Position numbers and translations under genes: made by a program
Shown: positions 1-53,640 of the stretch, one piece after another
How positions within the stretch are numbered: the stretch's first letter is position 1
Layout: each line of letters opens with the position of its first letter
Notes under the pieces: model-generated
What the model was told of the DNA's origin: nothing
The model's database searches: none
The model's input: only the letters and a program-made list of their open reading frames with translations
Origin: Blasia pusilla
Lineage: Eukaryota
DNA: 64,000 nt
Direction of reading: 5' to 3'
NCBI GenBank assembly: GCA_050084515.1
Contig: CM114271.1
Coordinates: forward strand, 15,624,001 to 15,688,000

Positions 1-1705
1 CTTATTTTACAAAGAGAGAATTAGTGCGTGAGAGAGCTTCATGGGGGACCTCGCACGTCACTCGCTGGTTTTGCAGGTTGGGGATTGTATCCTCTGTTCA
101 GCGGTTCATGGGAGTGCTCACTGGAGCAAGAGCCGCTTACTTATGATGTTTCCTTTGCCAATTTTTCGTGTGAAAGAGTGGCGCGCGGAAGCGCTGCACA
201 ATTTTTGATAGGGATTGAGTATGGGGGCGAGTTGCCCCATGCCGATGCTCTCCGAAGCACCATGTAGCTTGCTTATTTGTATTTTCACAGGTTTTACATT
301 TTTGTTGGAAGATATCAGCGCCGAAGCGGTGTCAAATTTTTTGTAGGAGAAAGAGACATTCGGCTTTATGAGAGTCCCTGTCAATTTTTACTGGAATGTC
401 TGATTCAAAATATTTTTTAACGCTGTCGTGAAGCTGTGCACATTGTGCAATTTGAAGTTGCGAGCAAAAATTTATGGTCAATCTTGCAAAACTGCCATTG
501 CTAGGAAAATTTTAGGGTTAAATTGTTGAAACCCTAAACCAGCCGCCACGACGGCGGCGGCCGTCACCGTCAATGGTCCGCCATCGATGGTCAACCATCA
601 CCATTTATGGTTAATCGGCACCATCAACGGTCAACCGTCCACCGTCCACCGTCCATTGTGTGCCGCCGCCACCGCCTAGCGCTGCTTAGAGCCGCGTTCG
701 TCCGTTGTCCACCCTTTGGTTGCCATTGCCGCCATTACGGAGTGGAGGATCTTCCACAATGACCGTTGATTCTCTGATTGTGTCGCCACCACATACTTTT
801 TTTTGGCCGCCACCGTCATTGTAGTTTCGTCATCAACCAGTGATGGCACATGACCTCAGGTTATGGTGTTTGAGTTTTCATTTCATGCTACCATGTTGTG
901 ATTGGTATCCGCTTGACGATGATCGAGTATCGTGTCGTGACGCCCGTAGCCGCAACGCGCCGCCGATTGCCGCGCCATGCCGCTCATGCCGCACTGCACC
1001 ATCTCGATTGCGGAACTGCTCCTTGACTAAGGAACATAGCGTGTGAATTTTTGATTGAGGAGGGTATGCCGCCGAGTGCCACATCCCATTCCCGAGTGTC
1101 GTGCCATTTGTAGCTGTTCCGTGCCGCTAGTGCCATACCGGACGGCTAGACCTGCACCGCACATCGAGGAGGTTTGAGCATCGTCGGTACGAGAGGAGTA
1201 CGACTTGCTGATTGGAGGAGTTTTCTTCACGAACGGGTTGGGGTCGAGATTTGCAGTTTCTGAGGAGCGACATCGACATTATTGTCAAGTTACCCATTTA
1301 GATTTCTTACCCTTCACATGTGAGGGATTTCTGGATATTTGGTTTCATGTTGATGCTCGGAGCATCGATGATGTATGTAGGGGACATAGACCTGTGTGGG
1401 ATGTCCAGAGTTGAGGATGGTTTGTCGATGGGATGATGTTGATTTGCCGCACCACGCTGGTTGTTGCGGCATAGGACACGTCTCAGTGAGAGAGTGTAGA
1501 TTGAGTGCCGCCTGTTTAGTTTAAGTGATTGAGGGATTACTCGCGAGATTGAGTGATTATGTGAGAGGGACACGAGGGCCATCACGGCGTCCTTTCAAGA
1601 TTTTGAGAGGCAAGGTAGTGGATCTGAGAATAGCTCTGGAGGGTTACCCGGAGTGGTGCGAGGTCTCGAGGATCTCCACGTGAGAGACCACCTCGATCTC
1701 CTTCT

Positions 1706-2900
1706 ATGTCGTCTTCAAACGAGGGGGAGCATATAGAGGAGTGTGTTATTGATCCACCGTATACATTGAGTGGTCCTACCAGTAGGGCATACGAGATGGA
1801 CGACCGGGGTAGAGGACCGCATAGGTTTTCGGGTGTTGTATGCACTATAGAGCTACACGACTTCATTGCGGAGTTTAGGAGTTGGTGTGACTCACAACGA
1901 GCTAGGAACTCAAGAGAGTTCAACTCGTTCACAGCATGGAACGGTATGTTCCAGCATTTAGAGGGGGCGCCCATGGAAGATTACCATGAGTTCTCCCACA
2001 GATATGCCCACGAGATTGAGGCATGGCCACTCTACTATGACCCACACTTTGTGTCATGGACGGAGCCATTCCTAGATGAGGAGGAGGAGTCAGGAGAGGC
2101 TACTTCCTCTTCCACTAGTGATATTTTAGGAGGGATCACTCGCACTGGAGCAGTTGCGCCATATGGTCGGGTTCGTCCCAGGTTCAACCCCGTGGTTGAG
2201 TTCTTTGCTGAGTTGAGGGCGAGTTACTAGGGGGTACGAACAAAGAAGTTGCGGAGCATCCACGACTTCCAAAGACGCCCGGGTGAGAGTTTGCATGAGG
2301 GTTACACTCGCTTGCACCGATTGATCAACGTCACTCAGGGGGTGATAGAGGCTCAGGCTATCTAGTCATGGTACGCGATGCTGGACCGGACCCTGCGGAC
2401 ACGAGTGCGAGAGGGGTGCTTCTTATGAACACCTCCCCTACGTTAAAAGATATTTTTAGGATCGTCGAGAACATTAAGCGCAACGTAAACATGGCGGAGG
2501 AGAGCGTAGTCATCATGGGTTCTGGGCGAGAGCAATCACGATTGTTTGCACCACCTGTGCAGCAACGTGGACTCTGAGATAGGTTGACTGTGGCACCATG
2601 AGCTCACAGAGGATATCGAGAGGCCGTGCCAAAGAGACGTGCGCCTTCATATGTGGCTCAGCAGCAGCCGCCTACAATTACTTTGTTGGTCATGTGGTGG
2701 AGCCCATCATCAGCGTGATTGCACTCGTCAGGATCATGGACGTGTGCCTCAGCATGGAGGAGGAGATGATGCTGCACCATGAGGTTATTAGTGTGACTAT
2801 TGTCAGAGGTATGGTCATACACGCTCGAGATGTTTCAGTTTACATCCTGAGTTACATCCGGACCGAGGGCCAGAGAGGGCATCAGAGCAAGTAGCTGGTC
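1706..2900 (+). pseudogene. gag: retrotransposon gag with two CCHC zinc knuckles
   Basis: ORF 1706-2230 reads through a stop into gag-like FQRRPGESLHEGYTRL; knuckles CWSCGGAHHQRDC (2684-2722) and CDYCQRYGHTRSRC (2792-2833). Confidence 0.8.
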
Positions 2901-3615
2901 TAGGTGGGCCTAGACATCGTGCACCATGTGGTCCCGTTGGGGGACGAGGAGCTAGAGCTGCCCGTGGAGGAGGTAGAGTCCTACCACCTAGACGCATCGA
3001 GGGAGACGCCGGGTGTGAGGCTAGGATGGCTGCCTAGATACATCAGCTACAGGAGCAGATTGTTGCTATGGCATTGCGATTACCCGATGTTGGATCCATG
3101 GCATCTACATCGTATGGAGCAGCCAGAGATATGGAGGATCCTGGTTGGATGTGCAGGGTTGCCCAGATGGAGGCCGACGTAGTTGTGATGCATGGAACAG
3201 CCACAAAGTTGGATCCAAAACGAGGGAAAGCTAGGAAATAGACTAGGCTTCCTCAGACTTTCACGTTGTCCGAGGCGATGAGGACCCCATCGATGGGTCC
3301 TGATGAGAGTTCGTGGAGAGTTGGTGTGCAAGCACGGAGGGCGATGGGAGAAGCGAGTGCGACGACTCCTATTTCTGATGCTCAGGAGGGGCATGTGTCG
3401 AGCACGTTGTTGGGGGCGACCACCGTTGTGTACTGCGCTCCTTTATTTTCTGCTTCCGATGTTATGACGCTGGGAGGTACGCCCGCCGAGGTTTTTTGGC
3501 TGGCCGCTACGCTATGTGAGCGTCGAGTTGGAGTTTATGCATCACGTTCAAAGGTAATTGCAGAGGAGGTGATGGACCGTCCACGTCATATTCATGGCAG
3601 ATTGCTATTGTTGGG

Positions 3616-4047
3616 ATGGCGGAGATGCCCGCTAGACCCGCAATAGAGCGTGCCATGGCTTCTCCAGGTGTTGTGTTGCTAGATAACCTAGGAGAGGTCT
3701 TCCAGTTGGTGAGTCTTGGAGGTAGAGCTTTTAGTCCGCAACGCGTCTTGTTGGATTCAGGAGCGCAACCCCTGATGTTGGGGAAAGCGTCATTCAGAGG
3801 AGTGGGCTTGACGAGAGCCGATGTGAAGCGTTGTCCATTCCGGATATAGACATCCTTGGGTGGAGCAAGTACCACACAGTATATCACCCGATAGGAGGTT
3901 GTGGTGAGGATTCACCCGGGACATACTACAAATGAGTCTGTGGTGCAAGCCAAGGCGATAGTGACTAATGCAGAGTCCTATGACATCTTGGTTGGTGGAG
4001 TAGTGTTATACCCAATGGGGTTTTCCCTAGATTACTGGGAGGAGTGA
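3616..4047 (+). pseudogene. retroviral-type aspartic protease
   Basis: RVLLDSGAQPLMLG active-site motif and downstream SYDILVGG motif. Confidence 0.85.
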
Positions 4048-4411
4048 GTGTCCTACAGACCAGGATGGCACTCAGGTGATGGGCGCCTTAGCTTATTACC
4101 CGTTTGACTCATAGGTGCAGTGATCCATAGCTAGGAGAGATGGCGACCTTAGCAACATTTAGCAATGCCATCACTTGGCCTAGTGATGTGATTGAGGGAC
4201 ATGTCCATGCAAAGGATACTCCCATTCCTAACATTTCTATGGAGAGGAGTGTCATAGTAGCCGCATCAATCCGTAGAGGAGAGGTGTTGCTTTGGGGCTT
4301 GACTGAGGAACTTTGACGCTTAGCCATTGAGCATGACAAACCGCGTGGAGCGAGACGCTTATACTAGAGTGTGACGGGTCAGAGGAACCCTAGGTAGGCA
4401 GGAGTGCTTCT

Positions 4412-4820
4412 ATGCCCCCTTTGGACAGCACCCGGATTGTGTGGTGCATCTTAGAGGAGGGTATTCGGTTGTTGGATCTCTTTGGAGGGATCAATACTAG
4501 GTTAGCTCTTGTTTTGCATGTTGGAGTGTGCGTGGAGCAATACCTATATGTGGAGATTGATGATGTTGCGAGGCACACTTCACTTCACCATGTGGTACTG
4601 TTATGCCTCCGTTTTCCTGACTTGTTGTGTGCATCCGCCATTCAGGGTTACCAAAGTTCCCTACCAAGGGATATTTCATTGTTGGGGGCGCAAGACTTGG
4701 AGTGGGTAGGGACCATAGACTTGGTCATTGCTGGTTGGCTGTATTAGAGCCAATCGAGTGTTGGACGAGGTAGCAGGTTAGCTGACACTCGGTCTTGGTT
4801 ATTTTGGGAGATGATGGGAT
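4412..4820 (+). pseudogene. C5-cytosine DNA methyltransferase domain (DNMT3-like, N-terminal half) inside pol
   Basis: Motif I RLLDLFGGI, motif II YVEID, motif III-like RDISLL, motif IV IDLVIAGW[LY*] (decayed GWPCQ), then GSRLADTRS and frameshifted GLFWEM (motif V-like); motifs VI-X not seen. Confidence 0.85.
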
Positions 4821-5019
4821 CGGGAGAGACATCCTTGGACTTCTTGGGATGTTTTGTAGGTACGCCAAGAGATGATAGCCACAACATCGAGCGTGGTTCC
4901 GAGTACTTCATGTGGAGATGAAAGTTCTATTTTCCGAGACCGGGTTGCACCATAGCAACCACCGACATCCGCTCCGGAGAGTCCTACCGTAGTCACGATG
5001 GAGATTTGGGAGCCAGATA

Positions 5020-6430
5020 TGGGCCCTAAGTTGAAAGGAGGAGAGCGGCGTCAGATACACCAATTCCTTAGGAGTAATAGGAGTTGTTTTGCATTTAGTT
5101 TGCATGATTTGGGTAGCTGAAGGGTCCAGAGATCCGCATTGAGTTGTCGAGTGACACACCAATCTTTCGACGATCCTGCAGGTATAGTGATATGGAGAGG
5201 GCTCTGATTCAAAGTAGGAGCTAGGTTGGAGTAGGACTAGTGGAGATGTCGCATGGAGAGTATGCATCTGCCACTGTCATGCCTGCCAAGAAGGATGTGC
5301 ATGGCAACTCGACGGATAGGCGAATGTGTGGAGATTATCGACCTATCAATCGGCAGACGAAGTTCGATAGGTATGCCATGCCCACCCCTAAGGAGATCTT
5401 TGATGTGATTGGGCATGCAAAGGTCTTCAGTTCATTGATTGCGAGCCGGATACCATCAGCTGCCTATCAGATTAGAGGACATGCAAGAGACATCATTTTG
5501 GGGCATCGATCCTCACGGGAAGGATTGTTTGTACCAGTGGCGGTTCTCACCATTTGGCTTAAAGAGCGCCCCGGCTGAGTTTCAGAGGGTTATGGATAGG
5601 ATCTTGGCAGGTCTGGATTTTGCTAGGTGTTATATTGATGACATCGTAGTCTTTAGCGCCATGGTTGAGGAGCATGAGAGACATCTAGAGGAGATGTTTC
5701 GACGACTGCAATTACATGGGCTCAAGCTACATCCAAGTAAGTGCAAGTTCTCCTATGACCAGATTGAGTATTTGGGTCACACAATATACCTTGGGGACCT
5801 TGGTGTGCAATAAACGACGGTAGAGGCTATTTCACGCATTCTACGCCCTACATATATGAATCGAGTTTGTGCATTCATGGGATTGGCGAACTTCTATCAA
5901 CGGTACACCAAGGGTTTCAATTCGATTGCGAAGTCGCTAACCTTGATGACCAAGGTAGATCAGGAGTGGCACTGGGGGATGAGCAAGAGAGAGCATTTCA
6001 GATGCTCAAGGATAGATTGACGTCCGTGCCCATATTGAGGAGACCGATCAGGGAGCGTCCTTTCCAATTGCATACCGATTGGAGCATGTTGGAGCGATGC
6101 TCACCCAGCATGATGATGATGGAAGAGAGTTCGTGGTGGCTTATGCTAGTCGCTCAAACAACGCCACAGAGGCAAAGTATAGCTCGTATGAGAGTGAGTG
6201 CTTGGCTCCAGTGTGGGCTGTCGCACATTTCAAATGTTATCTATTCAAAAATCCCTTTACCATCATTATTGATCATCAGCCACTTAAGTGGTTGATGGAG
6301 TCCGACAAGCTTACAAGGAAGCTTGCAAGGTGGGCTCTTTTATTGTGGGGGTATGACTTCCAGGTGGTGCATAGATCTGGGACGCTCAACCAAGATGCAT
6401 ATGGTTTAAGCCGTAACCCATGCCCGAGTC
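5020..6430 (+). pseudogene. pol: reverse transcriptase + RNase H
   Basis: RRMCGDYRPIN, GYHQL, PFGLKSAPAEFQR, YIDDIVVFS, KCKF..EYLGH; RNase H FQLHTDWS, VAYASR, YSSYESEC, DHQPLKWL. Confidence 0.95.
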
Positions 6431-6779
6431 AGCGAGATGCGACTGGAGCTCGTTGGCATGGTGAGAGTGATGAGGAGTTGGTGCCAAGATGGCATGCGTT
6501 AGCCTATTTGGGCTTGTTGGCTGTGGAGAGCCAGATTGCTGAGACTTTGATGGCGAGGTCTGATGGAGAGTCCTTAGATCCAAAGGCCGGTGAGGAGAGG
6601 ACGGGTGGCCGAGACATTCATGACGATGGAGTGGTCTTGGAGAACCTGTGTACTGGCAGCATCGCGAGCACAGTGGGTGCTAGAGAGCGGGATTGGATTC
6701 TACAACGAGCCAGACGGTTCCGGTGGAAGAGCACACATGTGTTACGAGTGTGGAAGGATGGTAGAGTGCATGTAGTGTC

Positions 6780-7880
6780 TCATCCTTTGTAGAGAGCACG
6801 TTTGGTGCGTCATGCCCATGAGGAGTTGGGTCATTTTGGAGTGAAGCGGACGTACAGCTTGCTCTAGATTCAGTATTGGTGGCGAGGCATGCAGATTGAT
6901 GTTCAATAGTTTGTTGCCAGATGCATGGTGTGTGATTGAGTCCAAGCATCGTTCAATGCTCCTACTCCATAGTTGCATCCACTTCCGATCATAGGTTAAG
7001 ATTATAGATGGATTTTGGATTTTGTAGGATCTTTGCCTTAGACGGAGCGCCATAGTCATTATGTGTAGTGATCGTCGAGCACTTCTCGAAGTGGATAGAG
7101 TTGGTTGCATTTCTTGACAAAGCGAGTGAGGGAGTAGCATATGCCTTCCTAGATTGAGTGATGAGTCATTATGGCGCACTTGCTGAGGTGTTGAAAGACC
7201 ACGGTACAGAGTTCCGTGGGGAGTTTCAAGCCTTCTGTGATGAGGCACTAATTGACCACCACACTACTTTGCGACATCATCCTGAGGTGGATGGACTAGC
7301 GGAACGGGTTGTATAGACGGTGAAGAGAGGACTACGCAAGTATGGCTTGCAGAGAGGTCACCTAGGAAATTGGGACCTTCAGTTGCCGTGGTTGGAGATG
7401 GGATACAGATTTTGTAGGGAGGCATCCTTAGCGTCTTTCTCACCGTACTTTTTGCTTTATGACCGAGAGCCAGCCAGATTTACCTATGGCCATTCGTCGA
7501 GATACTGATGAGGTGTTGAACCTTGATGACCCTGATGCATGGATGTGAGCATGTTCTCAGAGGGCTGAGTTTTTTCGGAGAGTGATGCCCATGGCGTTTG
7601 AGAACTTGGCGATTGCGCAACATCGGGATACGTTGAGGTATGCAACTATTCGGGGTGGTAGTTATCAACCTACTATCCGGAGATTTCATCAAGGAGACTA
7701 TGTTTACTTACAAAAAATGGTACCCACGACGTTGGATGTGACTGTAGGGCGTACCATCTTGAGAGTGCGTGAGGGTTTGCCATCTGGTGTTTTCTTATTG
7801 GAGGGACGCGATGGTATGATTTGGAAGGACCATGTGCGTAATTGTGCGCCATGTCATCTTCCAAACATTGACCTTATAGT
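6780..7880 (+). pseudogene. integrase
   Basis: HAHEELGHFG...YWWRGM...CMVC zinc finger, DFVG, D.GTEFRGEF, GLAER, SPYFLLY segments; multiple stops. Confidence 0.9.
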
Positions 7881-7911
7881 TGATCTGAGCTTAGCAATAG
7901 TTTTTGCAGGC

Positions 7912-8058
7912 TTGCGATGTGTGTTGTGTGGTTCCGCCTGTGGTGCAACCACTATGCTAGTCTATGATGGGTGTTTGAGATGATGGCATATGGCATGTTT
8001 GACGCCACCTCTCACTAGGATTCCTCAGGGATGATGGATGTGTCCCAGATGTACATAG
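7912..8058 (+). pseudogene. PHD finger at C-terminus of pol
   Basis: CVLC...MLVYDGCLR*WHMACLTPPLTRIPQG*WMCPRC matches the C4HC3 PHD pattern with two in-frame stops and one Cys>Tyr. Confidence 0.88.
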
Positions 8059-8272
8059 AGTATAAATTATTTATATAAATAATTATATATATATATATAC
8101 TTCTACATTTTGGCTTGTATCTCTGATATGGATGACAAGAAGGCGACTAACAATGGGGCCACATTAGCACCCGGACTTCTTACTCTTAGCGTCCGAGAGA
8201 TGTATGTCATGGTAGGTAGGGATAGATGACTATCTAGAGTTAGAGGGACCTAACCACCAGCTAAGGGGGTGA

Positions 8273-8401: not shown

Positions 8402-9044
8402 TGTCACGTCTTTTAGGATAGATCGGTGAGATCTAGTTGAGCGCCCTCATGAGTAGTGGAGGACAGGCTCAATAGGTCGAGATGATCTGCTGAGGCTCCG
8501 GGAAACTTGAGAGAGCAGGTTTTCCCTTCGTTTCGGCTCAATTGGAGCCATATTGAGGAACTTAGAATTTTAGGTAAGTACCATTTTGCGTATATGATCA
8601 ACTTTGTATTTTTGGTAAGTGGACCTTGACCTCCTACATCAGGTCAAGAGCCAAGGAGGTGACTTGGGAGCATAGGTTACCATGGAGAGAGTTTGGGAGA
8701 GGGGAGGGATATACCTCAAGGAGAGAGAGCTTGAGAGCTCATTCTCTCTTTGTTGAACCTCTTGGCATGAGGTGGCGGAGCTATGGTCTTGCTTGCCTTC
8801 TGTGTGTAACCCAAGCCTCTCATTAGGATAGTGGGTTTGGTTTGACATTGAGAGAGAGATGTGAGAGTGCACATATGTGAGAACTATGGTGTTGTTAGAG
8901 AGATTGGATCTTATTTTATTTGAGATATTTTGGTACTTCTTGTCTCCTTGTTTGGATGCCATGAGTTAGCATGGGATTGTGCGTGTTTATGTGTGTGTTC
9001 GGTGACAGGATATATATTGTGTAGCAATGTTTATGCGCACGACA
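8402..9044 (+). repeat. LTR (~643 bp) of the DNMT/PHD Gypsy element
   Basis: TGTC...GACA termini; homologous copy at 22885-23416. Confidence 0.8.
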
Positions 9045-10788: not shown

Positions 10789-11773
10789 GAGGGTTGCACA
10801 CGGACAAAGTTTGTGTCCGTGCATATGTCCATGTTTGTGGACTTATGTCCGTCCTATCAAGGGACGAGTCCGTGCGGGCCCAGGTATCCATGGCCTCCAC
10901 TTGGGCCGCCAAAGCCCGATGCGTAGCCCCTGGCTGACCAAGCGTAGACCCATTGGGTGGCCCGCTAGGGCCTGTTGTCGGCCCGCAATCAAGCCCACAG
11001 GGTGGGCTTGGCTCACATGGCGGACTGAGGGCCCGCAAGGGACCCTCGCAGAGCCCGCGCATGGCCCACATGGCAAGTTGGGGTCCGCAGGGGGCCCTCG
11101 CAGAGGGCCGGCTCCACACGAGCCTGGTTGTGGACGAATCACAGGACCTGCGTGCTTGGCCCTCATTGGGAGGGCTCATTCCGGTGTGGAACCGCCCCTC
11201 TACGGGCCCCCTACTAACCCCACCTTGCCATGTGGACCTTGGGTGGGCTCTGCGAGGATCCCTTGCGGGTCCCCAACCCGCCCAATGAGGTCCAAGCCCG
11301 CCCTACACGCTTGGTGCAGGGCGACCGCGGGCCATGGAAGCTAGCCGGCGGCGCAATGGGTGCATGCTCGGTTAGCCTAGGTTTACACGGTGGGTTGTGG
11401 GCAGGCTCTAAGCAGGCTGTAGCCTCCATTGTGGGCCCGGTGCCATGGTTGCACAAAAATGGACAAGTTCTTCCTTAGGAAGGACAAGTTTGGACATATC
11501 CAAGAGGTGGGATCCACACTTTTAGACCATGATGGAAGGCAAGGCAAGGATGAGAGGAGCAATGATGGAGGAGGGAGTGGAGGTGTAGGGAGGAAGAAAT
11601 GGGGGAGTATGGAACACTAAGGCAAGTAAGGGGAATGAGAAAGAAGGGAAAGGTGGGGCCCATATGGACAAGTCCTTCCATAGGAAGGATATAAGTCCAC
11701 AAACATGGACTTTGTCCACATGCAACCTTGTGGGGCGCGCATGCCTAGACTTGTCCATTTTCGTGCAACCTTG
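10789..11773. mobile_element. hAT-family MITE (985 bp) containing a second nested MITE-like unit at 11444-11730
   Basis: GAGGGTTGCAC...GTGCAACCTTG; 8-bp TSD TATATAAT/CATATAAT; inner ends CATGGTTGCAC (11444) and ATGCAACCTTG (11730) without TSD. Confidence 0.85.
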
Positions 11774-13345: not shown

Positions 13346-16300
13346 TCTATCATCATGAGTCATCACCTAACATAATTGCTCTAGATCCAAGAGAACTCAT
13401 CAATATCCAATCTCAAGCATGTTTCTCTTTAAACTCTATCATAATCTCGTCTCAGTAACTTTGATGGTAAGAGGTTTGTCCAAATTGTTCCTTGTAGTCA
13501 AGGATGATGTGCATGCGATCCAACACTTGTCAATTCTATAAATATTGGTCCAAACTAAGACCTCACATGATGCAAACTCATCATGATTCAAGTATGAATG
13601 TTACCCAAAAATGGCACATTATCTACAATGTACGAAAGAAAATATGTTTGAATCTTCTAGAAGTACCATAATACCCACAACATCTCATAAAATATGCTTG
13701 ACCTTGGATCTTGCAAATAAATCCCTCTACCAACCGATAAATGACCCTAATATGGTCATCAAGAAATCATCTGATGATTAATGCTAAGTTTGGGTCCGTG
13801 TCCGGATCCTCTGCCTCCAACAATGATATGTATGTAGTAAATAGGCAATGTATGTTGGTACCTATGCATTTTCCTTATCAGAATCAACTTAAGATATCAT
13901 TGGATCAACATCTCACATGGCTTAATTAGACTAATTCTAATATATCATCCCATGCTTCTCGATGTAGAGATATTGATAAACCTATATTATGGCCTACAAC
14001 ACTAGAATCAATATATCATCTCTCTTCAAAGAGATCCAATACTGTCTTGAATATCTAATTCTATAGTGCACACGCTAGCAAGGACCTAGGAAGTGAGTCA
14101 TGATTGTGTTTCTAAGGAGGAAAGACCTTGGTGTGATACACCAAAGTCGAAACCTAGACTAGCTAGTCAAAAGACCTGGAAGGGCGATGGAACTCGCCGC
14201 ATGACTAATATTAGAGGAGATGTACACATGTCTTGTGATTAACCTTAGGTGAGAAATTAAAGAAGCATAGCCAGTATTAGCCCCTTGTGGCGACAAAAAG
14301 ACAAGAAAGGTTTGAAACCTTGGAGCTGAGTCAAGGGCAAGAAGCAAGGAACAGGTGAACGGTAAAGATGGGTGAGACCAAGGTTGCACGTGGACTTGTT
14401 TGTGTCCACGGACATATGTCCGTCCCAAGGACGAACATATCCATGCGGGCCCGGGTGCAGGCTCCATGAGCCCACCTTGCCCGTGGCCCCGCACCTGGGC
14501 TTGCGCGTACCGAGCATTCCACCCTTGCTCGGCCAATGCACATGACGCCCCTCTCTTGTCTTGGAGTACTCGAGCTGAGAACTTTTGGAGTGGGTGAGCA
14601 AATCTAGCAATTTGACACGAAAGATTTGATTCCAAAGCAAAGCTTTATTCCCATGATAAGCATAGCTTGAGATGCTTTACATATTTCTTGATCTGCCTAC
14701 TCTACTTTGCATTAGAGCATTAATATTGATTATCACATCCTTTCTTTATTTCCCCCATTAAGGGAGGGAAAAACTTTACAGTCACATTTGGATGTGGTGT
14801 AGAGTTGATTGGCATCCCAGGGATTCCTAAGGAAGTCCCTTGAGACAATGAGCAAGCATCTTGCACGTTGGGTCCTGGCATATTCAAACGTTTCTTCATA
14901 GAGCCAGCTTCCAATGTGTGTGCTCTTTTGTTGTTGGGCGTCCAAGGGCGATACTTAGGAGTTCCTCTTTCCAAGCCTTCCACTGGCTTTGGAATGTATT
15001 CGCTATCTGATAGTCCAGGCTCCCTCGGAGCTGGGAGAGAATCCTTTATGGCATTCTCAAAGCCTGGGCATGATCTGGGGTGAGCTTTGTCCCCCAAGGA
15101 GGGCTTACACCTAAATGCAACTTCTTCCATTTACTCAGTCGGATGCAATCCTCCTGAGATATGGGAGACCACTTCGGACTCTTGAGCACTTGGGGATCAG
15201 GACTCTTTACACCATAATGCTTAATTTTTCGAAGTATCTTTGGCAACACTCTTTACTTTCCCCTGTGTCGATTTCTTCCTTGTTATTCTCGTTGCCATGG
15301 TACTTCCAAACCTTCAATGTGTGTGTTGGCTGAATGAATGTTTGTAGAGTGGAGTTCTCTAAGGAGCAATAGAGAGGAGCTTCAAGAGCATAACCTTGGG
15401 AGCTAAGCTTCGGGAGATGAGCTCCGAGAGCTGAGCTTTGGGAGCTGAACCGGAGACAACTTGAACTACTTCAGTAGCCGAACTGCAACTTGGAGGCCTT
15501 GAGATCCCAAACTGCAACAGGCCGCTGCTTAGAATGCTGACTACAATGGGGACTTTAGTTGTGTGAAAAACTTGCATGCACATAGCAATATGTAGAATGT
15601 GTTAGAGTAAAGCATGATAGTGCCTAGGACATGAAGCTTAATCGAAAGAGCAAAGTTGGATCTTACCTAGACTACTCTTATTAGTGATCCGATGCGGATA
15701 TGTGCACACAAAGATGATAAACGTGTTAATGTCAACACTGTCAAATAAAGCTACACATTAACTCTGAATGGTGAAATGGTTGTGTGCATTGAGCTTTGTC
15801 TGGTTGGAGCTTTTAAAATTGGAAAACATTTAAATACAATGGCGGGGAGCCTCGTAACAACCTTTCGAGGAGCCTTCAAGGGATCGGATGTCTCTTCATG
15901 ATCGTAACATCTTCGAGTACAGAATTTGAAATATACGGCTCTAAAAAAACCCGTTATAATCGGATGATCGAATTGAAACCCTAAAACATCCCCAGGGGAA
16001 CCAAAAGGTGGCAACTATAACTCCTGAATGCGTGAACAGCCTCGAGTGGATGAAAAGACCACGTGTCATACTCTGGAGTGGAGTGTTTGCAAAATGAGGA
16101 TGCACTCTCCCTTAATTTTAAAGATAAGGTGTATTTGTAGCGGCTGTAACTATTACTTCTATTGTGGGAAGTTGCACATCACTCTTAGAGGATACATGTT
16201 TCCTTCAAAGGCAGTACTAATCTAAATTATCAATTTTTTAAAATGGAATTCTATAAAGTTCACAGTAATTATTTAGCGTTGTTAACATCTTTTCAATTTA

Positions 16301-22689: not shown

Positions 22690-22880
22690 TTTCTTTGGCC
22701 CTCGGTATAATCTTTCTTCATATGGCCTACCTTTCTACAAGTCCAACATTTACCTTTCACATGACTACTCTTAGATTGAGATCTCAACCAATATCTGCCT
22801 CTGCATATTTTATTCCTATCAATTGGCCTACCTCGAACGACAAGAGCTTCTACATTTTTCTCCTCATTGCTTGACATGGG
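22690..22880 (-). pseudogene. Ty1/Copia gag fragment (zinc knuckle)
   Basis: EALVVRGR...RSQSKS..KCWTCRKVGHMKKDY, typical copia gag C-terminus. Confidence 0.65.
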
Positions 22881-22884
22881 TAAC

Positions 22885-23416
22885 CTTAGAGAGCAGGTTT
22901 CCCCTTTGTTTCGGCTCATTTGGAGTCATTTTGAGGAACTTACTATTCAAGGTAGGTTTCCATTTGGAGCATAGTTGAATTTCCACTTTGGGAAGTGGCC
23001 CTTGACCTGCTATAGTAGGTCAAGAGCCAAGGAGGTGACCTTCAAGCATAGGTTACTGAGGAGAGAGTTTGGGAGAGGGAAGGGGGTATACCTCCAAGAG
23101 AGAGAGCTTGAGAGTTCATTCTCTCTTTGTTGAACCTCTTGGCATGAGGCGGCGAAGCTATAGTCTTGCTTTCCTTGTGTGTGTAACCCAAGCCTCTCAT
23201 AAGGAGAGTGGGTTTGGTTTGACATGAGAGAGAGTGTGCACACCATGGAGAGATTAGTGTGAGATGTGATGAGAGATCTACTTGTTTTATTGGAGATATT
23301 TTGGTACTTCTCGTATCGTTGTCTGGATGCCATGAGTTAGCATGGGATCCTGCGTATTTATGTGTGTGTTTGGTGAAAGCAATGTATGTTGTGTAGCAAT
23401 GTGTATGCGTACAACA
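22885..23416 (+). repeat. 5'-truncated LTR, same family as 8402-9044
   Basis: Colinear similarity to 8507-9044 (GAGAGCAGGTTT...TTCGGCTCA; AGGTCAAGAGCCAAGGAGGTGAC; ...ACAACA end). Confidence 0.88.
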
Positions 23417-23439: not shown

Positions 23440-25931
23440 AATCATGTGTGAAAGTCCATCCTAGCGTGCAACGGGATCTCCAAAATAGGGTACTGATGGG
23501 AAATGGACAATGGAGGGAAGCGAGACCCTCGAGTGAAGTTGAGGAGACCACGCCATTACAAATAGGTTCTCAACACATAGGAAATAGTGTTCATGTTGTG
23601 TCAAGTGTTGATGGGGTTGCAAACACCGTGTGACACTCTCGAGGAATGCAGAGGAGTTGTTGGGCCGATGCAAGGAAGTAGTAGTTATGGGAAGAAGCAA
23701 GCTAATCTGAGGGATTCTTTCAGCATGCACGAATAGAAGTTGCAAATGACATGTGGGCAAAGTCTTTCTATGAATGTGGAATACCATACGGCAAGATGCT
23801 TTCAAAGAAGCAATTTTGGCAACAAAAAAGATGAAGGGTTACTCAGGTCCTAGTTACAATTTGTTGCGCACCACCCTACTTGAGAAACATATGGGGAAGG
23901 TGAAGGAAAAGGTGGATATTATATTGGATAATTTTTGTTTGGGGGCCACGATCATCACGGATTTTTGAACCAATATAAGGAGTGAGTCTTTAGTGAACAT
24001 CATAGTCCCGTGTCCACAAGGTGAGGTCATTATTGAGTCGATAGACATCAAGGGGGAATCCCAAATGGCTCAATGGTTGGAAGGTCACATAGAGAGGACT
24101 ATCATGCACATCGGTCCAAAGAATGTGTTGTTGCTTGTGACAAGACAATGCTAGCAATGAGCGAGCATTCTTTGGGGTGGATGCGTATCACATTCTCTTG
24201 ATCTAGTATGCGAAGAATGGGGAAAATGGCCATGGGTGGACAAGATATTTTCACAAGCTTGTGAGATGGTAGTATTTGTGAAGACTAGAACTTGGGTGAT
24301 GGCCAAATTCATGGAAACCAATCCTGTGAAGAGAAGATTGTTGCTTCTTGCAAACACATGTTTTGCTACAAACTTTATCAAGTTGGGACGTGTCTTAGAA
24401 TTGAGGGAGGTGTTCCATGTCATGGTTACCACAAATGCTTTTAGGGAATATTTCAATGGGAGGGATGCAAGGCAAAGGGAGAAGGCATGAGAAATTGAGA
24501 CTATTGTGGCCAATCATGATTTTTCAATACAAGGTGAGGACTTGTTTGCTGTGGATTTGCCTACTATTATTCTTTTGAGAGAATGTGATGGTCATAAAGC
24601 AATGATGGGACATATTTATCACCATATATTTGAGATAATGGAAGATACGTTCTTTTCCAATAACCCCATGGCCAGGCGTGGGTGGAAGGCATCGCGGTTT
24701 TTTTGTGACAATCTCTAGAGCTACGGAAATGGTTAATGTTCTTTTTAGGTGATGGGCATTTATCCACAACAAGTTACATGCAATAGGGTACATTCTTGCC
24801 CCTTACAACTTTCTTGATAGTGTGCAAGACGTCTTGAAATGGTGAGTGCATGAGAGATTTCAAACAATATCTGAAACTCTATACAAAGGGGGTGCATGGC
24901 CTCAATGTCACGGAGGAAATTCCTTTTGTAGGTACTTGTTTGCAAGAGTTGGGCAATATTGTGAACCATAAAGAAGTATTTGTGGATGAGTTTGATAAGG
25001 AAGTCGTCGATTCACTTAGTTCCTTTGATTGGTGGCGCATGCACGGTCAAGATGCACCAACATTGCGATATGTGGCTAAGTCTGTATTAGCACAAATGGT
25101 TTCTTCCTCTTCAGCGGAGAGAAATTGGAGTAGTTATGGTTTTATCCACAATAAGCATACGAATGAATTGACCAATGAGCGTGCCAAGGATTTGGTGTAC
25201 ATCTACACAAACTCAAGGTTTGGAGACAAGGGTGTTTCTAAAAAATCAAGACAAGGACTCTTGTACGAGCAATAATTTTTTGAAAGGGATGGACAAGAAC
25301 AAGCTAGAAGGGTTGTAGAAGATAGTAGTAAGTCTAGCTTACATGCACAAAACCGTGATAGTGATCGTGAAGATAACCTCGACTTGCAAGATGAGGACCT
25401 AGAGGATTTGGATGTGCTATCTGGAAATTATGGCATGGTTGGCAGCGAAGGGAGTCAAGATATCGGAAACACTCAAAATGTTGATTCCAACAGGCCGGAA
25501 GAGATGGAGATGATGATGTAATGGAACATTGGATTCGAGAGCACGCTGAAGAGCAACAACGGAGGATTTCAAGAGAAATGAATCTACTCATCACTTCACC
25601 TAACACAACCTACGACCCTTAGATTGTCGCACAAGTAGGAATTCAAAATTATTCCACAGAGTCTTGTGAACCTATGCAAGATTCTCCTCCACAATCTTTG
25701 AGCGCTGAAACGGTGGACTTAGTTGATGAGCCTAATGATAATGAGGTTCTCATACATGTTGTTCCAAACTCTCAACCCATCAATCATGGCATGGATAGTT
25801 CATACATCTCCTCCGATGATGAAACAAATATCGTAGGAAATCGTCGTCGATCCACCCGACTTCGAACTCTTGAGCCGCCAAATTACCGCCTACATCTTAA
25901 TCCACCGGACCCAACCTTAGACCTAGACTAG
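23440..25931 (+). pseudogene. hAT transposase (DUF659-type plus hAT C-terminal dimerisation domain), outer copy
   Basis: YSGPSYNLLRTTLL, GATIITD, TCFATNF, DWWRMHGQDAPTLR..SSSSAERNWSSYGFIHNK..NELTNERAKDLVYIYTNSR; acidic C-terminal tail; stops/frameshifts; 5' boundary approximate. Confidence 0.92.
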
Positions 25932-31838: not shown

Positions 31839-33210
31839 ATGTCTAGTGGGGCAAAGTCATCGAGAGCGGGAGAGAACCAAAATGAATCCAACATTGGTGC
31901 CAAGAGGCAAGGAGCAACTCTGAGGAATGATTTCAACATGGCCGTAAGAGAGGCATGGTTAGACTGGTTTTTCCAGCTTTCTTTAGAAAGAGAAGATCCT
32001 GCATTTCAAGGGGTATGGATGGTTTACATGACTACATCTTGGAATTGCAGAGATTGTCCAATAGAGTGGCAAAGGTATTTGACTAAGAAGTGGATGCCGC
32101 GGAGGCTGATAGGTTGATTGAATTTTGTGCCCAACAAGGTGTTAACCTAGAGAGAGCGAATATCAATCTCAAGATATATAAGGATAAGAAGCAGAATGTT
32201 GCAAAGTTGGCTCTCATAGAAAGATTTTGTATAGAAGTGCTTAACGTCTTTTCAAGGGATGTAGTACTTCTCTAGGGTTGACATTGACCGTTCCATGTGC
32301 AATAACTTTGATTTCCGCTAAGAATGTAGTAACAGGACATGACCCGAACAATATTTTGGGAACCGATTTACATGGAATTGTGGACCATTGTAAAATAAAT
32401 GGAACCCGTGGCATTAGGGAAGAAATGTACTATTGCATGAAGGTGTATAAGGAATCATCTCTATCAGGATCTAGAAAATTGATGATACGAGAGGAGTTAT
32501 TTGCAAGTATTTTACATCGCGATGTTGTGCGCATGGTAGGAAGGTTGATCAAGGATCCACCACGTGCCATTTTTCCATATTGGAATGGTGGACATCTCAA
32601 AAATTGGTTGCGAGCATGCCATAACTTGAAGAACGGCGCGGGTAATCTAGAAGGGTTGGAAAATATGAGATGTCTCGCAATAGCATCAAATGTCCTCCAA
32701 CTTGTGGTTGTTGTTCTTGGTACCATGAAGACTGTCTATAAGCGTCGGGTTTTTCATACCAACCTCCATGCTAGAAAGATGTTCATCCATTTTGGATCCA
32801 ACTCTAGCCCTTACATCGGCGTTGGAGATTGGGGGAATGCCATGTGGAATGATGAAGTCTTAGAGTCTCCTCATAGATGATGGCAGTATGAACAAAAAAA
32901 TTATGTTGGGCATATAGCACCGGAGTTGATAGCAGGGCTTCTAAATCTCCCTTTTAGCAAGGCCACTGAAATCTATGCCCTAGGATGATTGTGAAGAATT
33001 TGAACTATGTGACATACAACCTCTCTGTCAGGAATGCCCAAGCGAACGTGAGATTTACTTATTTGGGAAGGATTTAAAAGTGGACATTAGCTCCAAATCC
33101 CTTTGATCGCAAAAGCTTAGAGTTACTTATTGCATATATCAAAGAAATGCAAAAGTATTAGGTGTAGACGATGTAGATTCAGGATTAAGGCCAATAACAG
33201 TGGTAGTATG
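31839..33210 (+). pseudogene. atypical protein kinase with ~150-aa N-terminal domain, inner copy
   Basis: ILGTDLHGIV (G-loop), YCMKVYK, PYWNGGHL, FHTNLHARKMFIH, VGDWG, HIAPEL, ATEIYALG; frameshifts/stops; no introns evident. Confidence 0.82.
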
Positions 33211-39827: not shown

Positions 39828-41365
39828 CTAGTCTAGTCTGTGGTTGGGTCCACTGGATTAAGATGTAAGCGGTAATTTGGCGGCTCAATAGTTCAAAGTC
39901 GGGTGGATCGGCGACGAGTTCCTATTGCAAATATTTCATCATCGAAGGAAATGTATGAACTATCTATGCCATGATTGATGGGTTGAGAGTTTGGAACCAT
40001 AGGTATAAGAACAGCATTATCATTAGGCTCATCAACGAAGTCCACCGTTTCAGCGCTCAAATATTATGGAGGAGTATCCCGGTTCACTAGACTTGGTGGA
40101 ATAATTGTGAACTCCTACTGGTGCAACAATGTGAGGGTCGTAGGTCGTGTTAGGAGAAGTGCTGGGGAGATTGGCGGCTTCGCTTGAAGTCCTCCGTTGT
40201 TGCTCTTCTTTGTGCTCTCAAATCCAATCTTCCATTTCAACATCAACATCATCTTCGTCTCTTCCAAGCCCCTCAAAATCAAAATTTTCAGAGTTGCCGA
40301 TATGAGTATCCCCTCTCCCTTTGATGCCATGAATTCCACATCTACCTCCTCTAGGTCCTTATCTTGCAAGTCAAGGTTATCTTCATGATTACCATCACGG
40401 TTTCTTGCATGCAAGCTAGATTCACTACCATCTTCTACTACCCTTCTAACTTGTTCTTGTCCATCCCTTTTGAAAAATATTGCTCGTACAAGAGCGCTTG
40501 TCTTGATTTCTGAGAAACACCCTTGCCTCCAAACCTTGAGTTTGTGTAGATGTAAACCAAATCCCTGCCACGCTCGTTGGTCAATTTATTCTTGTGCTTG
40601 TTGTGGATGAAACCATAACTACTCCAATTTGTCTCCGCTAAAGAAGATGAAATCACTTGTAGTAATATGGACTTAGCCACAGAGCGCAATGTTGGTGCAC
40701 CTTGACCGTGCATGCTCCACCAATCAGAGGGACTAAGTGAATCAACAACTTCCCTACCAAATTCATCCACAAATATTTCGTGATGGTTCACAATGTTGCC
40801 CAACTCTTTCAAGCAAGTTGCCACATAAGAATAAGCCTTAGTGACATTGAGGCCATACACCCACGTTGCATAAAGTTTCAGATATTGTTTGAAATCTCTC
40901 ATGCGCTCAGCATTTGAAGTGACGTCTTGAACATTATCAAGAAGATTGTAAGGGGCGAGAATGTAGCCTATTGCATGTATCATGTTGTGGATAAGTGCCC
41001 ACTACCTAGAAATAACAACGACCATCTCTATAGCTCTAGACATTGTGATAAAATAACCGAGATGCCTTCCGCCCACACCGGGCCATGGAGTTACAGGAAA
41101 AGAACGACTCTCTTGCATTATCTCAAAAATACGGCGATAAATACTCCGAGTCATTGCTTTATGACCATCACACTCTCTCAACAAAATAATAGTTGGTTTA
41201 GCCGCAACAAACAACTCCTCATCCTCCATCCAAAAATCGTGATTGGCCACAGTAGTCTCAATCTCTCGTGCTTTCTCCCTTTGCCTCGCATCCCTACCAT
41301 TAAAATACTCGCTAAAAGCATAGATGGCAACCATGGCATGGAACGCCTCCCTCAATTCTAAGATG
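39828..41365 (-). pseudogene. hAT transposase, inner copy, 5'-deleted
   Basis: ILELREAFHAMV..EYFNGRDARQREKA; DWWSMHGQGAPTLR..SSLAETNWSSYGFIHNKHKNKLTNER; colinear with 24390-25931. Confidence 0.92.

Positions 41366-48359: not shown

Positions 48360-53640
<5,281 letters not shown>

What the first reader, a model, noticed from the sequence alone, without database searches (positions are those of the whole stretch)
4412..4820. Cytosine DNA methyltransferase domain embedded in a Gypsy pol between protease and RT
Seen: C5-MTase motifs I (LDLFGGI), II (E), IV (DLVIAGW-[PCQ decayed to LY*]) and V-like (LADTRS/GLFWE) on the pol strand between PR and RT. Known: DNMT-carrying retrotransposons were reported in dinoflagellates (Symbiodinium) and the charophyte Klebsormidium (de Mendoza et al. 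2018). I am not aware of them being well described in land plants. Inference: the ancestral element could methylate its own cDNA or insertion site. In this copy the C-terminal motifs (ENV, RxR) appear deleted.
Basis: partly seen in the sequence, partly recalled or inferred. Interest (0 to 1): 0.88.

Follow-up and report, generated by a model that had tools for sequence, protein, structure and literature searches.

The report
Dead DNMT3 domain in Gypsy retrotransposon
A decayed jumping gene in this window carries the front half of a DNA-methylating enzyme inside its own replication gene; it is a broken copy of an abundant, transcribed family whose closest named relatives are in liverworts.

Summary
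Window 4418-4816 (+) is the N-terminal half of a C5 cytosine methyltransferase domain (motifs I, II, IV, V). It lies between protease and reverse transcriptase of a decayed Ty3/Gypsy pol ordered PR-DNMT-RT-RNaseH-INT-PHD. Pfam finds nothing in this copy. An all-against-all HMMER search finds 374 relatives. Of 20 scanned, 16 pass Pfam's PF00145 cut-off, several inside Gypsy polyproteins with the same order. Intact relatives keep PCQ, ENV, HRPR, ERERAMGF and LGQA/GNA. They match DNMT3A/B/C best by sequence (3.6e-11) and by fold.

In this copy the catalytic Pro-Cys-Gln reads Leu-Tyr-stop, and about 232 residues (motifs VI-X) are missing after 4816. Reads of the same coded species show a high-copy, sense-transcribed family, and most copies differ left of 4818. 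A second fragment lies at 13405-13938 (-).

The domain falls in a 100/99-supported clade with Marchantia and Calypogeia sequences. I found no paper describing such elements in land plants.

Verdict: a new member of the known Gypsy-DNMT3 kind. This copy is dead, and enzyme activity of the family is untested.

The parts
1727..2887 (+). gag-like region of the element, with a CX2CX4HX4C zinc knuckle at 2792-2833
   Evidence: tblastn P0163 residues 34-479, 21% identity, E 7e-10. Zinc-knuckle pattern read from the translation. Pfam itself gave no hit.
3592..4122 (+). aspartic protease, LLDSGAQ at 3748-3768
   Evidence: tblastn P0162 59-235 at 54.8% identity, and P0163 728-894 at 41.7%. P0163 carries Asp_protease_2 at 774-859. 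No Pfam hit on the window copy itself.
4418..4816 (+). N-terminal half of a DNMT3-type C5 cytosine methyltransferase domain. Motif I 4472-4492, motif II 4541-4564, motif IV 4727-4747 (Leu-Tyr-stop in place of Pro-Cys-Gln at 4739-4747), motif V 4796-4816.
4817..4818 (+). deletion junction: about 232 residues (~0.7 kb) holding motifs VI, VIII, the target-recognition region, IX and X are absent, and the frame changes
   Evidence: All tblastn alignments end at 4816. The HPW landmark resumes at 4830-4847 in another frame. The L006 ORF has 236 aa between the two landmarks. 1542 DNA reads carry unlike sequence just left of 4818.
4819..5107 (+). linker between the DNMT domain and RT
5108..6005 (+). 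reverse transcriptase (YIDD at 5631-5642), with frame changes near 5438 and 5978-6005
   Evidence: RVT_1 E 1.6e-23; tblastn with P0161
6016..6492 (+). RNase H
   Evidence: RT_RNaseH E 7.1e-28
6613..7475 (+). integrase: zinc-binding domain and catalytic core
   Evidence: Integrase_H2C2 E 6.2e-16; rve E 2e-5, below Pfam's cut-off; tblastn
7918..8052 (+). PHD finger at the C-terminal end of pol (two stops inside)
   Evidence: PF00628 E 8.4e-8; pattern coordinates; colinear with P0038, which has a PHD at 1490-1534
13405..13938 (-). second, isolated and more decayed DNMT fragment of the same family, covering motifs IV to VIII: Pro-Tyr-stop at 13755-13741, IFYEML, IVDNVP, SHAHHP
   Evidence: tblastn E 1e-21 to 1e-24 at 35-37% identity, up to 47.7% on shorter alignments. 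Motif coordinates. No Pfam hit. No other pol pieces beside it.

Best explanation
Window ~1700-8050 (+) is an old, dead copy of a Ty3/Gypsy LTR retrotransposon. Its pol has the order protease - DNMT3-type cytosine methyltransferase - RT - RNase H - integrase - PHD finger.

Shown:
- The DNMT domain is an integral part of this element lineage.
- In this copy it is non-functional three times over: the catalytic Pro-Cys-Gln reads Leu-Tyr-stop; about 0.7 kb with motifs VI-X is deleted out of frame at 4816/4818; and the rest of pol has several frame changes and stops.
- The copy carries the C-to-T / G-to-A decay typical of methylated plant repeats.

Inferred for intact family members: the domain is translated as part of Pol and acts as a de novo C5 DNA methyltransferase with a DNMT3-like fold. 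The most likely target is the element's own new DNA or its insertion neighbourhood, possibly guided by the PHD finger reading histone H3 tails. That would give new copies a host-like methylated state. I put about 0.4 on an active DNA methyltransferase with such a self-directed role. The 0.9 below is for what the sequence is.
For: Homology: 374 relatives at E<=1e-3, best 2.2e-37. 16 of 20 scanned relatives pass Pfam's gathering score for PF00145, as do 3 of 3 further ones: the L006 ORF, Marchantia P0213 and Calypogeia P0246.

Architecture: the window is colinear with P0161, which reads zf-CCHC, DNMT, RVT_1, RNase H, integrase. Among 68 relatives of >=900 aa, 29 have DNMT after PR or before RT.

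DNMT3 type:
- The motifs run in canonical order I-IV-VI-VIII-IX-X in intact relatives.
- P0162 hits DNMT3A at 3.6e-11, DNMT3C at 3.8e-10, DNMT3B at 6e-8, tobacco DRM at 1.2e-6 and M.HaeIII at 4.5e-5. No DNMT1 or CMT appears among the 50 hits at E<=1.
- The AlphaFold model of the natural L006 ORF has pLDDT 78.6 and pTM 0.78. All 35 Foldseek rows shown (ranks 1-50) are DNMT3A/3B/3C chains, best E 8.1e-19, with target TM-scores of 0.75-0.84 against isolated catalytic domains.

Family feature in the same coded species:
- 77,048 of 12.43 million DNA reads (0.62%) lie on 3400-8100.
- Depth is 685-1439 over the DNMT bins against 1403-3185 in the flanks.
- 1542 reads are unlike the window just left of 4818.
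- RNA reads are 10-50 times more frequent in one orientation and also cover the DNMT bins.

Decay: at places where reads differ, the window has A or T where the family has G or C at 312 of 591 places. CpG o/e is 0.42 and CWG o/e 0.74 in the domain.

Constraint in a related family: pairwise dN/dS has a median of 0.57 for DNMT (33 loci, 493 pairs) and 0.40 for RT-RNase H (15 loci, 88 pairs).
Against: - Neither window fragment gets a Pfam hit, and the first fragment has no significant PDB hit. Identification therefore rests on transitive homology.
- No LTR pair was found in the window, so the element's ends are undefined.
- Read depth over the DNMT part is only about 35-60% of the flanks. Part of the family may lack the domain, or it may simply be more diverged.
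I cannot say that this species still has an intact DNMT copy.
- In the related metagenome family only 2 of 37 full-length DNMT stretches are free of stops with all five motifs.
- A dN/dS of 0.57 is only moderate constraint and is weaker than for RT-RNase H.
- Enzyme activity of the streptophyte Gypsy-DNMT3 was not detected in yeast; the authors call the result inconclusive (PMC5890265 section 10).
Confidence: 0.9

Rival explanations
1. One-off capture: this single copy picked up a fragment of a host DNMT3 or DRM gene, and the rest of the family lacks it.
For: Read depth over the DNMT bins is lower than in the flanks. The copy is rearranged at several places (loose ends at 3614, 6092, 7068, 7820 and 7865).
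Against: The same domain sits at the same place in polyproteins of other hosts. Depth over the domain is still 685-1439, about half that of the rest of the element (1403-3185), which is not single-copy. A second independent fragment lies at 13405-13938. The motif order is not rearranged as it is in DRM.
Confidence: 0.02
2. Chance or another Rossmann-fold methyltransferase (N6-adenine, N4-cytosine or RNA), not a C5 DNA methyltransferase.
For: No PF00145 hit on the window copy. The PDB hit is not significant.
Against: Relatives at E down to 2e-37 carry PF00145 above the cut-off and have the PCQ, ENV and RxR motifs. By sequence and by fold they match DNMT3A/B/C first.
Confidence: 0.01
3. The family's DNMT domain is retained but is not a DNA methyltransferase in vivo: a DNA-binding or protein-binding pseudo-enzyme, or an enzyme acting on the RNA/DNA hybrid or on RNA.
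For: KnitGypsy-Dnmt3 gave no methylation in yeast.
Against: The catalytic residues (PCQ, ENV, HRPR, GN/GQ) are kept in relatives from distant hosts: 19 invariant columns in 23 sequences, among them the C and Q of PCQ and the E of ENV. A pseudo-enzyme would be expected to lose them.
Confidence: 0.15
4. The element reached this host by horizontal transfer from an alga or another plant, so its presence says little about land-plant biology.
For: The DNMT module sits at two different places in pol and also in a Copia-type polyprotein, so it moves between elements. The host identity is hidden.
Against: The domain falls in one 100/99-supported clade with all four named liverwort rows, apart from the Closterium and chlorophyte rows. 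The family is high-copy and old in the host: most reads are 85-95% alike.
Confidence: 0.1

Closest known systems
KnitGypsy-Dnmt3 of the charophyte Klebsormidium nitens (de Mendoza et al. 2018, PMC5890265; passages and section 10 read)
   Same: An unrearranged DNMT3-type domain inside the Pol ORF of a Gypsy-type element in a streptophyte, with the key catalytic residues kept in intact copies.
   Different: - No K. nitens sequence was available here, so common descent is untested.
- The paper describes DIRS-like repeats and few copies. A relative of the window's element (L006) has ordinary direct LTRs that are 94% alike, and the window's family makes up 0.62% of sampled reads.
- The window's element ends in a PHD finger; the word PHD does not occur in the paper's main text.
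- The nearest named relatives here are liverworts, which the paper does not mention.
Unpublished-looking database relatives: Marchantia polymorpha AXG93_868s1290 (P0213), Calypogeia fissa unnamed products (P0246, P0300, P0005) and Closterium sp. NIES-53/54 polyproteins (P0183, P0189, P0190)
   Same: The liverwort rows share the window's clade and are 55-57% identical over 118-137 residues to this decayed copy. Closterium has the same PR-DNMT-RT-RH-INT order.
   Different: They keep PCQ and ENV; the window copy does not. Closterium lies in a separate clade.
Chlorophyte Gypsy elements with DNMT between RNase H and integrase (Cymbomonas tetramitiformis, Haematococcus lacustris), and the DAM+DNMT 'EpiLTRs' of bioRxiv 10.64898/2026.05.21.726589 (passages read)
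   Same: The DNMT domain is homologous to the window's at E<=1e-8. A PHD finger sits at the end of pol.
   Different: The DNMT lies at another place in pol: 31 of 68 long relatives have it after RNase H or before INT. It falls in a different clade. The preprint places its EpiLTR DNMTs beside DNMT4, not DNMT3, and I did not test that.
Host de novo methyltransferases DNMT3A/3B/3C (animals) and plant DRM2
   Same: Fold and motif order as in DNMT3. DNMT3's ADD domain and this element's PHD finger are both PHD-type zinc fingers; that the ADD is one is recalled knowledge, not from a call.
   Different: No PWWP or ADD domain. The domain is embedded in a retrotransposon polyprotein. It is not circularly permuted as DRM is. 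Sequence identity to DNMT3 is only 20-23%.

Membership tests
C5 cytosine DNA methyltransferase (Pfam PF00145) | Profile HMM match above the curated cut-off | tested here: not met
   Window copies: no hit. Relatives: 16 of 20 and 3 of 3 above the cut-off. Membership of the window copy is by descent, as a pseudogene.
C5 cytosine DNA methyltransferase (Pfam PF00145) | Motif I, FxGxG SAM-binding loop | tested here: met
   LDLFGGI at 4472-4492, aligned with LFGGI/LFDGI of relatives and DNMT3A.
C5 cytosine DNA methyltransferase (Pfam PF00145) | Motif IV, catalytic Pro-Cys | tested here: not met
   Leu-Tyr-stop at 4739-4747; Pro-Tyr-stop in the second fragment. Present in relatives: C and Q are invariant in 23 sequences.
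C5 cytosine DNA methyltransferase (Pfam PF00145) | Motifs VI (ENV), VIII (RxR), IX and X | tested here: not met
   Deleted after 4816 in the first fragment. The second fragment keeps decayed VI (DNV) and VIII only. All are present in intact relatives.
DNMT3 subfamily | Closest to DNMT3 rather than DNMT1, CMT, DRM or bacterial enzymes, with unrearranged motif order | tested here: met
   Tested on intact relatives, not on the window copy. Sequence: DNMT3A 3.6e-11, tobacco DRM 1.2e-6, M.HaeIII 4.5e-5, M.HhaI 0.012. Fold: all rows shown are DNMT3A/B/C. No tree with host DNMT3, DRM or DNMT4 sequences could be built.
Ty3/Gypsy LTR retrotransposon | pol order PR-RT-RNase H-INT with Gypsy-type RT/RNase H | tested here: met
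   RVT_1, RT_RNaseH and Integrase_H2C2 match above Pfam's cut-off; rve matches at E 2e-5 but scores 25.2 bits against a cut-off of 32.6. The window is colinear with P0161.
Ty3/Gypsy LTR retrotransposon | Flanking long terminal repeats | tested here: not met
   None found for this copy; the 5' end may be lost or lie outside the window. The relative L006 has 300-nt direct repeats that are 94% alike, 8747 nt apart.
Gypsy-DNMT3 retrotransposons of streptophytes (KnitGypsy-Dnmt3) | Common descent with the K. nitens elements | not testable with these tools
Gypsy-DNMT3 retrotransposons of streptophytes (KnitGypsy-Dnmt3) | De novo DNA methylation activity | not testable with these tools
   Inconclusive in the only published assay.

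The most novel reading that the evidence does not exclude
A DNMT3-encoding Gypsy lineage (PR-DNMT-RT-RH-INT-PHD) is not an algal curiosity. It is an abundant, currently transcribed component of land-plant (liverwort-clade) genomes. Its methyltransferase and PHD finger would work together as a self-contained writer-reader module that sets the methylation state of new insertions. Part of the de novo methylation in these plants would then be supplied by the transposons themselves.
Probability: 0.25. Interest if true: 0.8.

Novelty: new member of a known kind. Interest (0 to 1): 0.5.

Why it matters
Retrotransposons that carry the very enzyme hosts use to silence them are known from dinoflagellates and one charophyte alga, and the charophyte enzyme's activity is still unproven.

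Here the same kind of element turns up as a high-copy, sense-transcribed family in a genome whose element clusters with liverwort sequences. Intact relatives sit unremarked in public Marchantia and Calypogeia protein sets.

That makes the question directly testable in a tractable land-plant model. Do these elements methylate DNA? In which sequence context? Does this help them hide, limit themselves or reshape the host methylome?

The specific locus in this window is only a dead copy. Its value is as a pointer to the family.

Tried and rejected
- **Pfam** on the window's two DNMT fragments: no PF00145 hit.
- **PDB phmmer** with the window fragment: only non-significant DNMT3B/3C hits, E 0.5-1, below an antibody chain.
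- **Whole genome:** none is held, so there is no copy inventory, no LTR dating and no test for DNMT-less sister elements.
- **LTR search** in the window: nothing pairs 1-1700 with anything downstream.
- **Word-indexed search** for longer proteins with the decayed fragment: only 2 hits. It had to be repeated with intact relatives and a profile.
- **Rfam** on the whole window: 0 matches.
- **Earlier notes of this scan:** none for this genome or this sequence.
- **Sequencing-run search:** no indexed holder is on record as RNA, which is not evidence either way. RNA runs of the same species label were laid instead.
- **Host identity:** names are coded. Only the broad lineage was inferred, from the tree.
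- **Rejected readings:** host-gene capture, chance resemblance and DRM-type rearrangement (see the rivals).

Full report
**1. What is in the sequence**

The + frame opening at 4394 reads, in order:
- LDLFGGI at 4472-4492;
- YLYVEIDD at 4541-4564;
- IAGW followed by Leu-Tyr-stop at 4727-4747;
- after the stop...RLADTRSWLFWEMM, ending at 4816.

Downstream on the same strand, Pfam finds RVT_1 (E 1.6e-23) and RT_RNaseH (E 7.1e-28). It also finds Integrase_H2C2 (E 6.2e-16), an integrase core (E 2e-5, below Pfam's cut-off) and a PHD finger (E 8.4e-8). Upstream there is a protease with LLDSGAQ at 3748-3768 and a gag-like region with a zinc knuckle at 2792-2833.

**2. Is it more than chance?**

Direct profile searches on this copy fail:
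- Pfam gives no PF00145 hit on 0 of 3 translations, even at E<=10.
- A PDB sequence search gives DNMT3B only at E 0.54.

It is overridden by three results.
- A search of the stop-masked 175-residue stretch against 1.84 billion representative proteins gives 374 hits at E<=1e-3, 79 at <=1e-10 and 2 at <=1e-30.
- Of 20 hits scanned with Pfam, 16 pass the curated cut-off for PF00145. One falls just under it (P0031, 21.1 bits against 22) and three have no hit.
- ESM Atlas neighbours are 30 of 30 PF00145 clusters.

**3. It is part of the element, not an insertion into it**

Several relatives are polyproteins.
- P0161 (2138 aa) reads zf-CCHC, DNMT (777-953), RVT_1, RNase H, integrase.
- The window is colinear with it by tblastn: PR 3667-4062, DNMT 4427-4816, RT from 5108, on through integrase to 7821.

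Among 68 relatives of at least 900 residues:
- 29 have the DNMT after PR or before RT. One of them, P0191, has the window's full order PR-DNMT-RT-RH-INT-PHD.
- 31 have it between RNase H and integrase.
- 8 show DNMT only.

Named hosts of full polyproteins are Closterium sp. NIES-53/54 (the window's order), and Cymbomonas tetramitiformis and Haematococcus lacustris (the other order).

**4. What kind of methyltransferase**

Intact relatives carry, in canonical order:
- LFGGI
- AGWPCQG
- GLxDPRSxLFWE
- ENVP
- GSRAHRPRLWW
- ADERERAMGF
- LGQAMDLN (GNA in P0161)

The domain is therefore not permuted as in plant DRM.

P0162 matches solved structures in this order: DNMT3A 3.6e-11, DNMT3C 3.8e-10, DNMT3B 6e-8, tobacco DRM 1.2e-6, M.HaeIII 4.5e-5, Arabidopsis DRM2 0.004, M.HhaI 0.012. 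No DNMT1 or chromomethylase is among the 50 hits at E<=1.

An AlphaFold model of a natural open 449-residue ORF from the related locus L006 has pLDDT 78.6 and pTM 0.78. In Foldseek it finds DNMT3A/3B/3C catalytic domains in every one of the 35 rows shown. The best E is 8.1e-19, and target TM-scores are 0.75-0.84 against isolated catalytic domains, with about 330 aligned columns.

I could not build a tree with host DNMT3, DRM, DNMT4 or the Klebsormidium elements.

**5. How this copy is broken**

- Where relatives have Pro-Cys-Gln, the window has Leu-Tyr-stop (4739-4747).
- All tblastn alignments with relatives stop at 4816.
- In a different frame the window resumes at 4830 with an HPW landmark that lies just past the end of the DNMT domain in relatives.
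- The L006 ORF has 236 residues between these two landmarks, where the window has about four. About 232 residues (~0.7 kb) with motifs VI, VIII, the target-recognition region, IX and X are therefore gone.
- The rest of pol changes frame at least five times and holds stops.

**6. Evidence from reads of the same (coded) species**

I laid one DNA run and three RNA runs on 3400-8100, counting reads at least 85% alike.

DNA:
- 77,048 of 12,434,590 records (0.62%) lie on the stretch.
- Only 481 are 99% alike or better, and 50,270 are under 90% alike. This copy is an old member of a large family.
- Summed depth is 1403-3185 in the PR, RT, RNase H and integrase bins. It is 784, 685 and 1439 in the three DNMT bins. 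The domain is thus present in many copies, though at 35-60% of the flanks. That gap could mean greater divergence or a DNMT-less subset.
- The best-supported loose end in the DNA run is at 4818. There, 1542 reads fit to the right and carry unlike sequence to the left, against a local depth of about 1930.
- Most copies therefore do not share the window's junction, which fits a deletion private to this copy or to a minority.

RNA:
- 3670-3720 records per run (about 0.03%) lie on the stretch.
- The orientation bias is 10-50 fold. In ordinary stranded libraries this means sense transcripts; that step is an inference.
- RNA reads also cover the DNMT bins, and the loose end at 4818 is listed for two of the three RNA runs (57 and 65 reads).

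The printed rows did not reach 4739-4747. I cannot say whether other copies of this species keep the catalytic codons.

Decay signature:
- At the 591 places where reads differ from the window in the DNA run, the window has A where reads have G at 157 places and T where reads have C at 155. The reverse changes number 64 and 64.
- This is the C-to-T / G-to-A decay expected of a methylated repeat.
- It fits a CpG o/e of 0.42 and a CWG o/e of 0.74 in the domain.

**7. Relatives and lineage**

A profile of close hits finds 412 proteins at E<=1e-5. Among the 120 listed are Marchantia polymorpha AXG93_868s1290 (P0213) and three Calypogeia fissa products. They are 55-57% identical to the decayed window stretch over 118-137 residues and pass PF00145.

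I built a tree of the N-terminal half of the domain from 52 rows. Of 52 proteins chosen, one was dropped as too short and one gave no match. The window and the L006 ORF were added. The window falls in a clade of 14 rows with 100/99 support. That clade holds all four named liverwort rows and only unnamed rows besides. The Closterium rows and the chlorophyte rows lie elsewhere. This is the only evidence I have that the host is a land plant, because its name is coded.

A scan of metagenome contigs gave 114 confirmed matches out of 138, of which 80 were kept.
- The window's 5000-8010 is about 70% identical in DNA and colinear with many of them.
- L006 has ordinary direct LTRs: 300 nt, 94% alike, 8747 nt apart.
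- Of the 80 loci, 37 cover the DNMT domain in one alignment. Only 2 of those 37 are free of stops with all five motifs.
- Pairwise dN/dS has a median of 0.57 for the DNMT domain (33 loci, 493 pairs, IQR 0.49-0.65). For RT-RNase H it is 0.40 (15 loci, 88 pairs).
- This shows some constraint, diluted by neutral decay after insertion, and weaker than on RT.

**8. How it most likely works**

Shown: the domain is a built-in module of a Gypsy lineage, it is of DNMT3 type, and it is dead in this copy.

Inferred for intact members:
- It is translated within Pol.
- It acts as a de novo C5 methyltransferase on the element's own new DNA or its insertion neighbourhood.
- The PHD finger possibly guides it by reading histone tails.

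I put about 0.4 on this. The main alternative is a retained but non-catalytic or non-DNA role (about 0.15). The only published assay of the streptophyte Gypsy-DNMT3 gave no methylation in yeast, and its authors call the result inconclusive (PMC5890265 section 10, read whole).

**9. Comparison with what is known, and novelty**

DNMT-bearing retrotransposons are described for Symbiodinium (LINE and DIRS) and for Klebsormidium nitens (KnitGypsy-Dnmt3) in PMC5890265 (passages and section 10 read). Later papers repeat 'streptophytes' with that citation: PMC12344493 (passages) and bioRxiv 10.64898/2026.05.21.726589 (passages). The preprint also adds DAM+DNMT elements in Cymbomonas and Euglena.

Eight full-text searches found no paper describing such elements in a land plant. 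Three further papers held nothing on the point in the passages I read: PMC11982613, PMC9033089 and PMC6453930. Supplements were closed and may list some.

This is a new member of a known kind. It extends Gypsy-DNMT3 to a liverwort-type clade, in a host where the family is abundant and transcribed. The locus itself is a pseudogene.

**10. What was left out**

Natural intact copies can serve for the assay.

Noticed in passing
window 13405-13938 (-): A second, isolated and AT-rich DNMT fragment of the same family covering motifs IV-VIII (Pro-Tyr-stop, IFYEML, IVDNVP, SHAHHP). No other pol pieces lie beside it. It supplies the motifs that the first copy lacks.
   Followed up: yes
window 7918-8052 (+): A PHD finger (PF00628, E 8.4e-8) ends the pol, where chromoviruses have a chromodomain. 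PHD also closes the pol of 25 of 68 long relatives.
   Followed up: partly
relatives P0038, P0057, P0206, P0207 and others: The same DNMT family sits at two different places in Gypsy pol: 29 long relatives have it after PR or before RT, and 31 have it after RNase H or before INT. It also sits in a Copia-type polyprotein (P0052, RVT_2). The module has therefore moved between elements.
   Followed up: partly
relative P0056: A 1417-aa protein combines this DNMT with a Dam adenine-methyltransferase domain (PF05869), like the 'EpiLTRs' of bioRxiv 10.64898/2026.05.21.726589.
   Followed up: no
window 3400-8100: Besides 4818, strong loose ends at 3614, 6092, 7068, 7820 and 7865 mark further private rearrangements of this copy. 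Several frame changes of pol coincide with places where many reads of other copies differ by 1-7 letters.
   Followed up: partly
window 8500-9044 and 22878-23416: A 550-nt repeat, 82.6% alike, lies just downstream of the element and again 14 kb away. It may be an LTR remnant and a solo LTR.
   Followed up: no
window 24838-25275 (+), 40438-41001 (-), 52731-53165 (+), 32245-32880 (+): Other mobile-element debris: two hAT dimerisation-domain ORFs and a PIF1-like helicase ORF (Helitron-like). There is also a protein-kinase-like ORF (PK_Tyr_Ser-Thr, E 6.8e-7).
   Followed up: partly
window 10827-11710 and whole window: Inverted-repeat pairs lie at 11012-11097/11204-11289 and 10827-10881/11656-11710, with a recurring ATGGACAAGTC-type motif. 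Over the whole window CpG o/e is 0.60 and CWG o/e 0.66, which fits CG plus CHG methylation.
   Followed up: no
relative P0205: A 1974-aa Gypsy polyprotein with this DNMT is labelled as coming from a 'Minisyncoccia bacterium' MAG. It is probably eukaryotic DNA binned into a bacterial genome.
   Followed up: no
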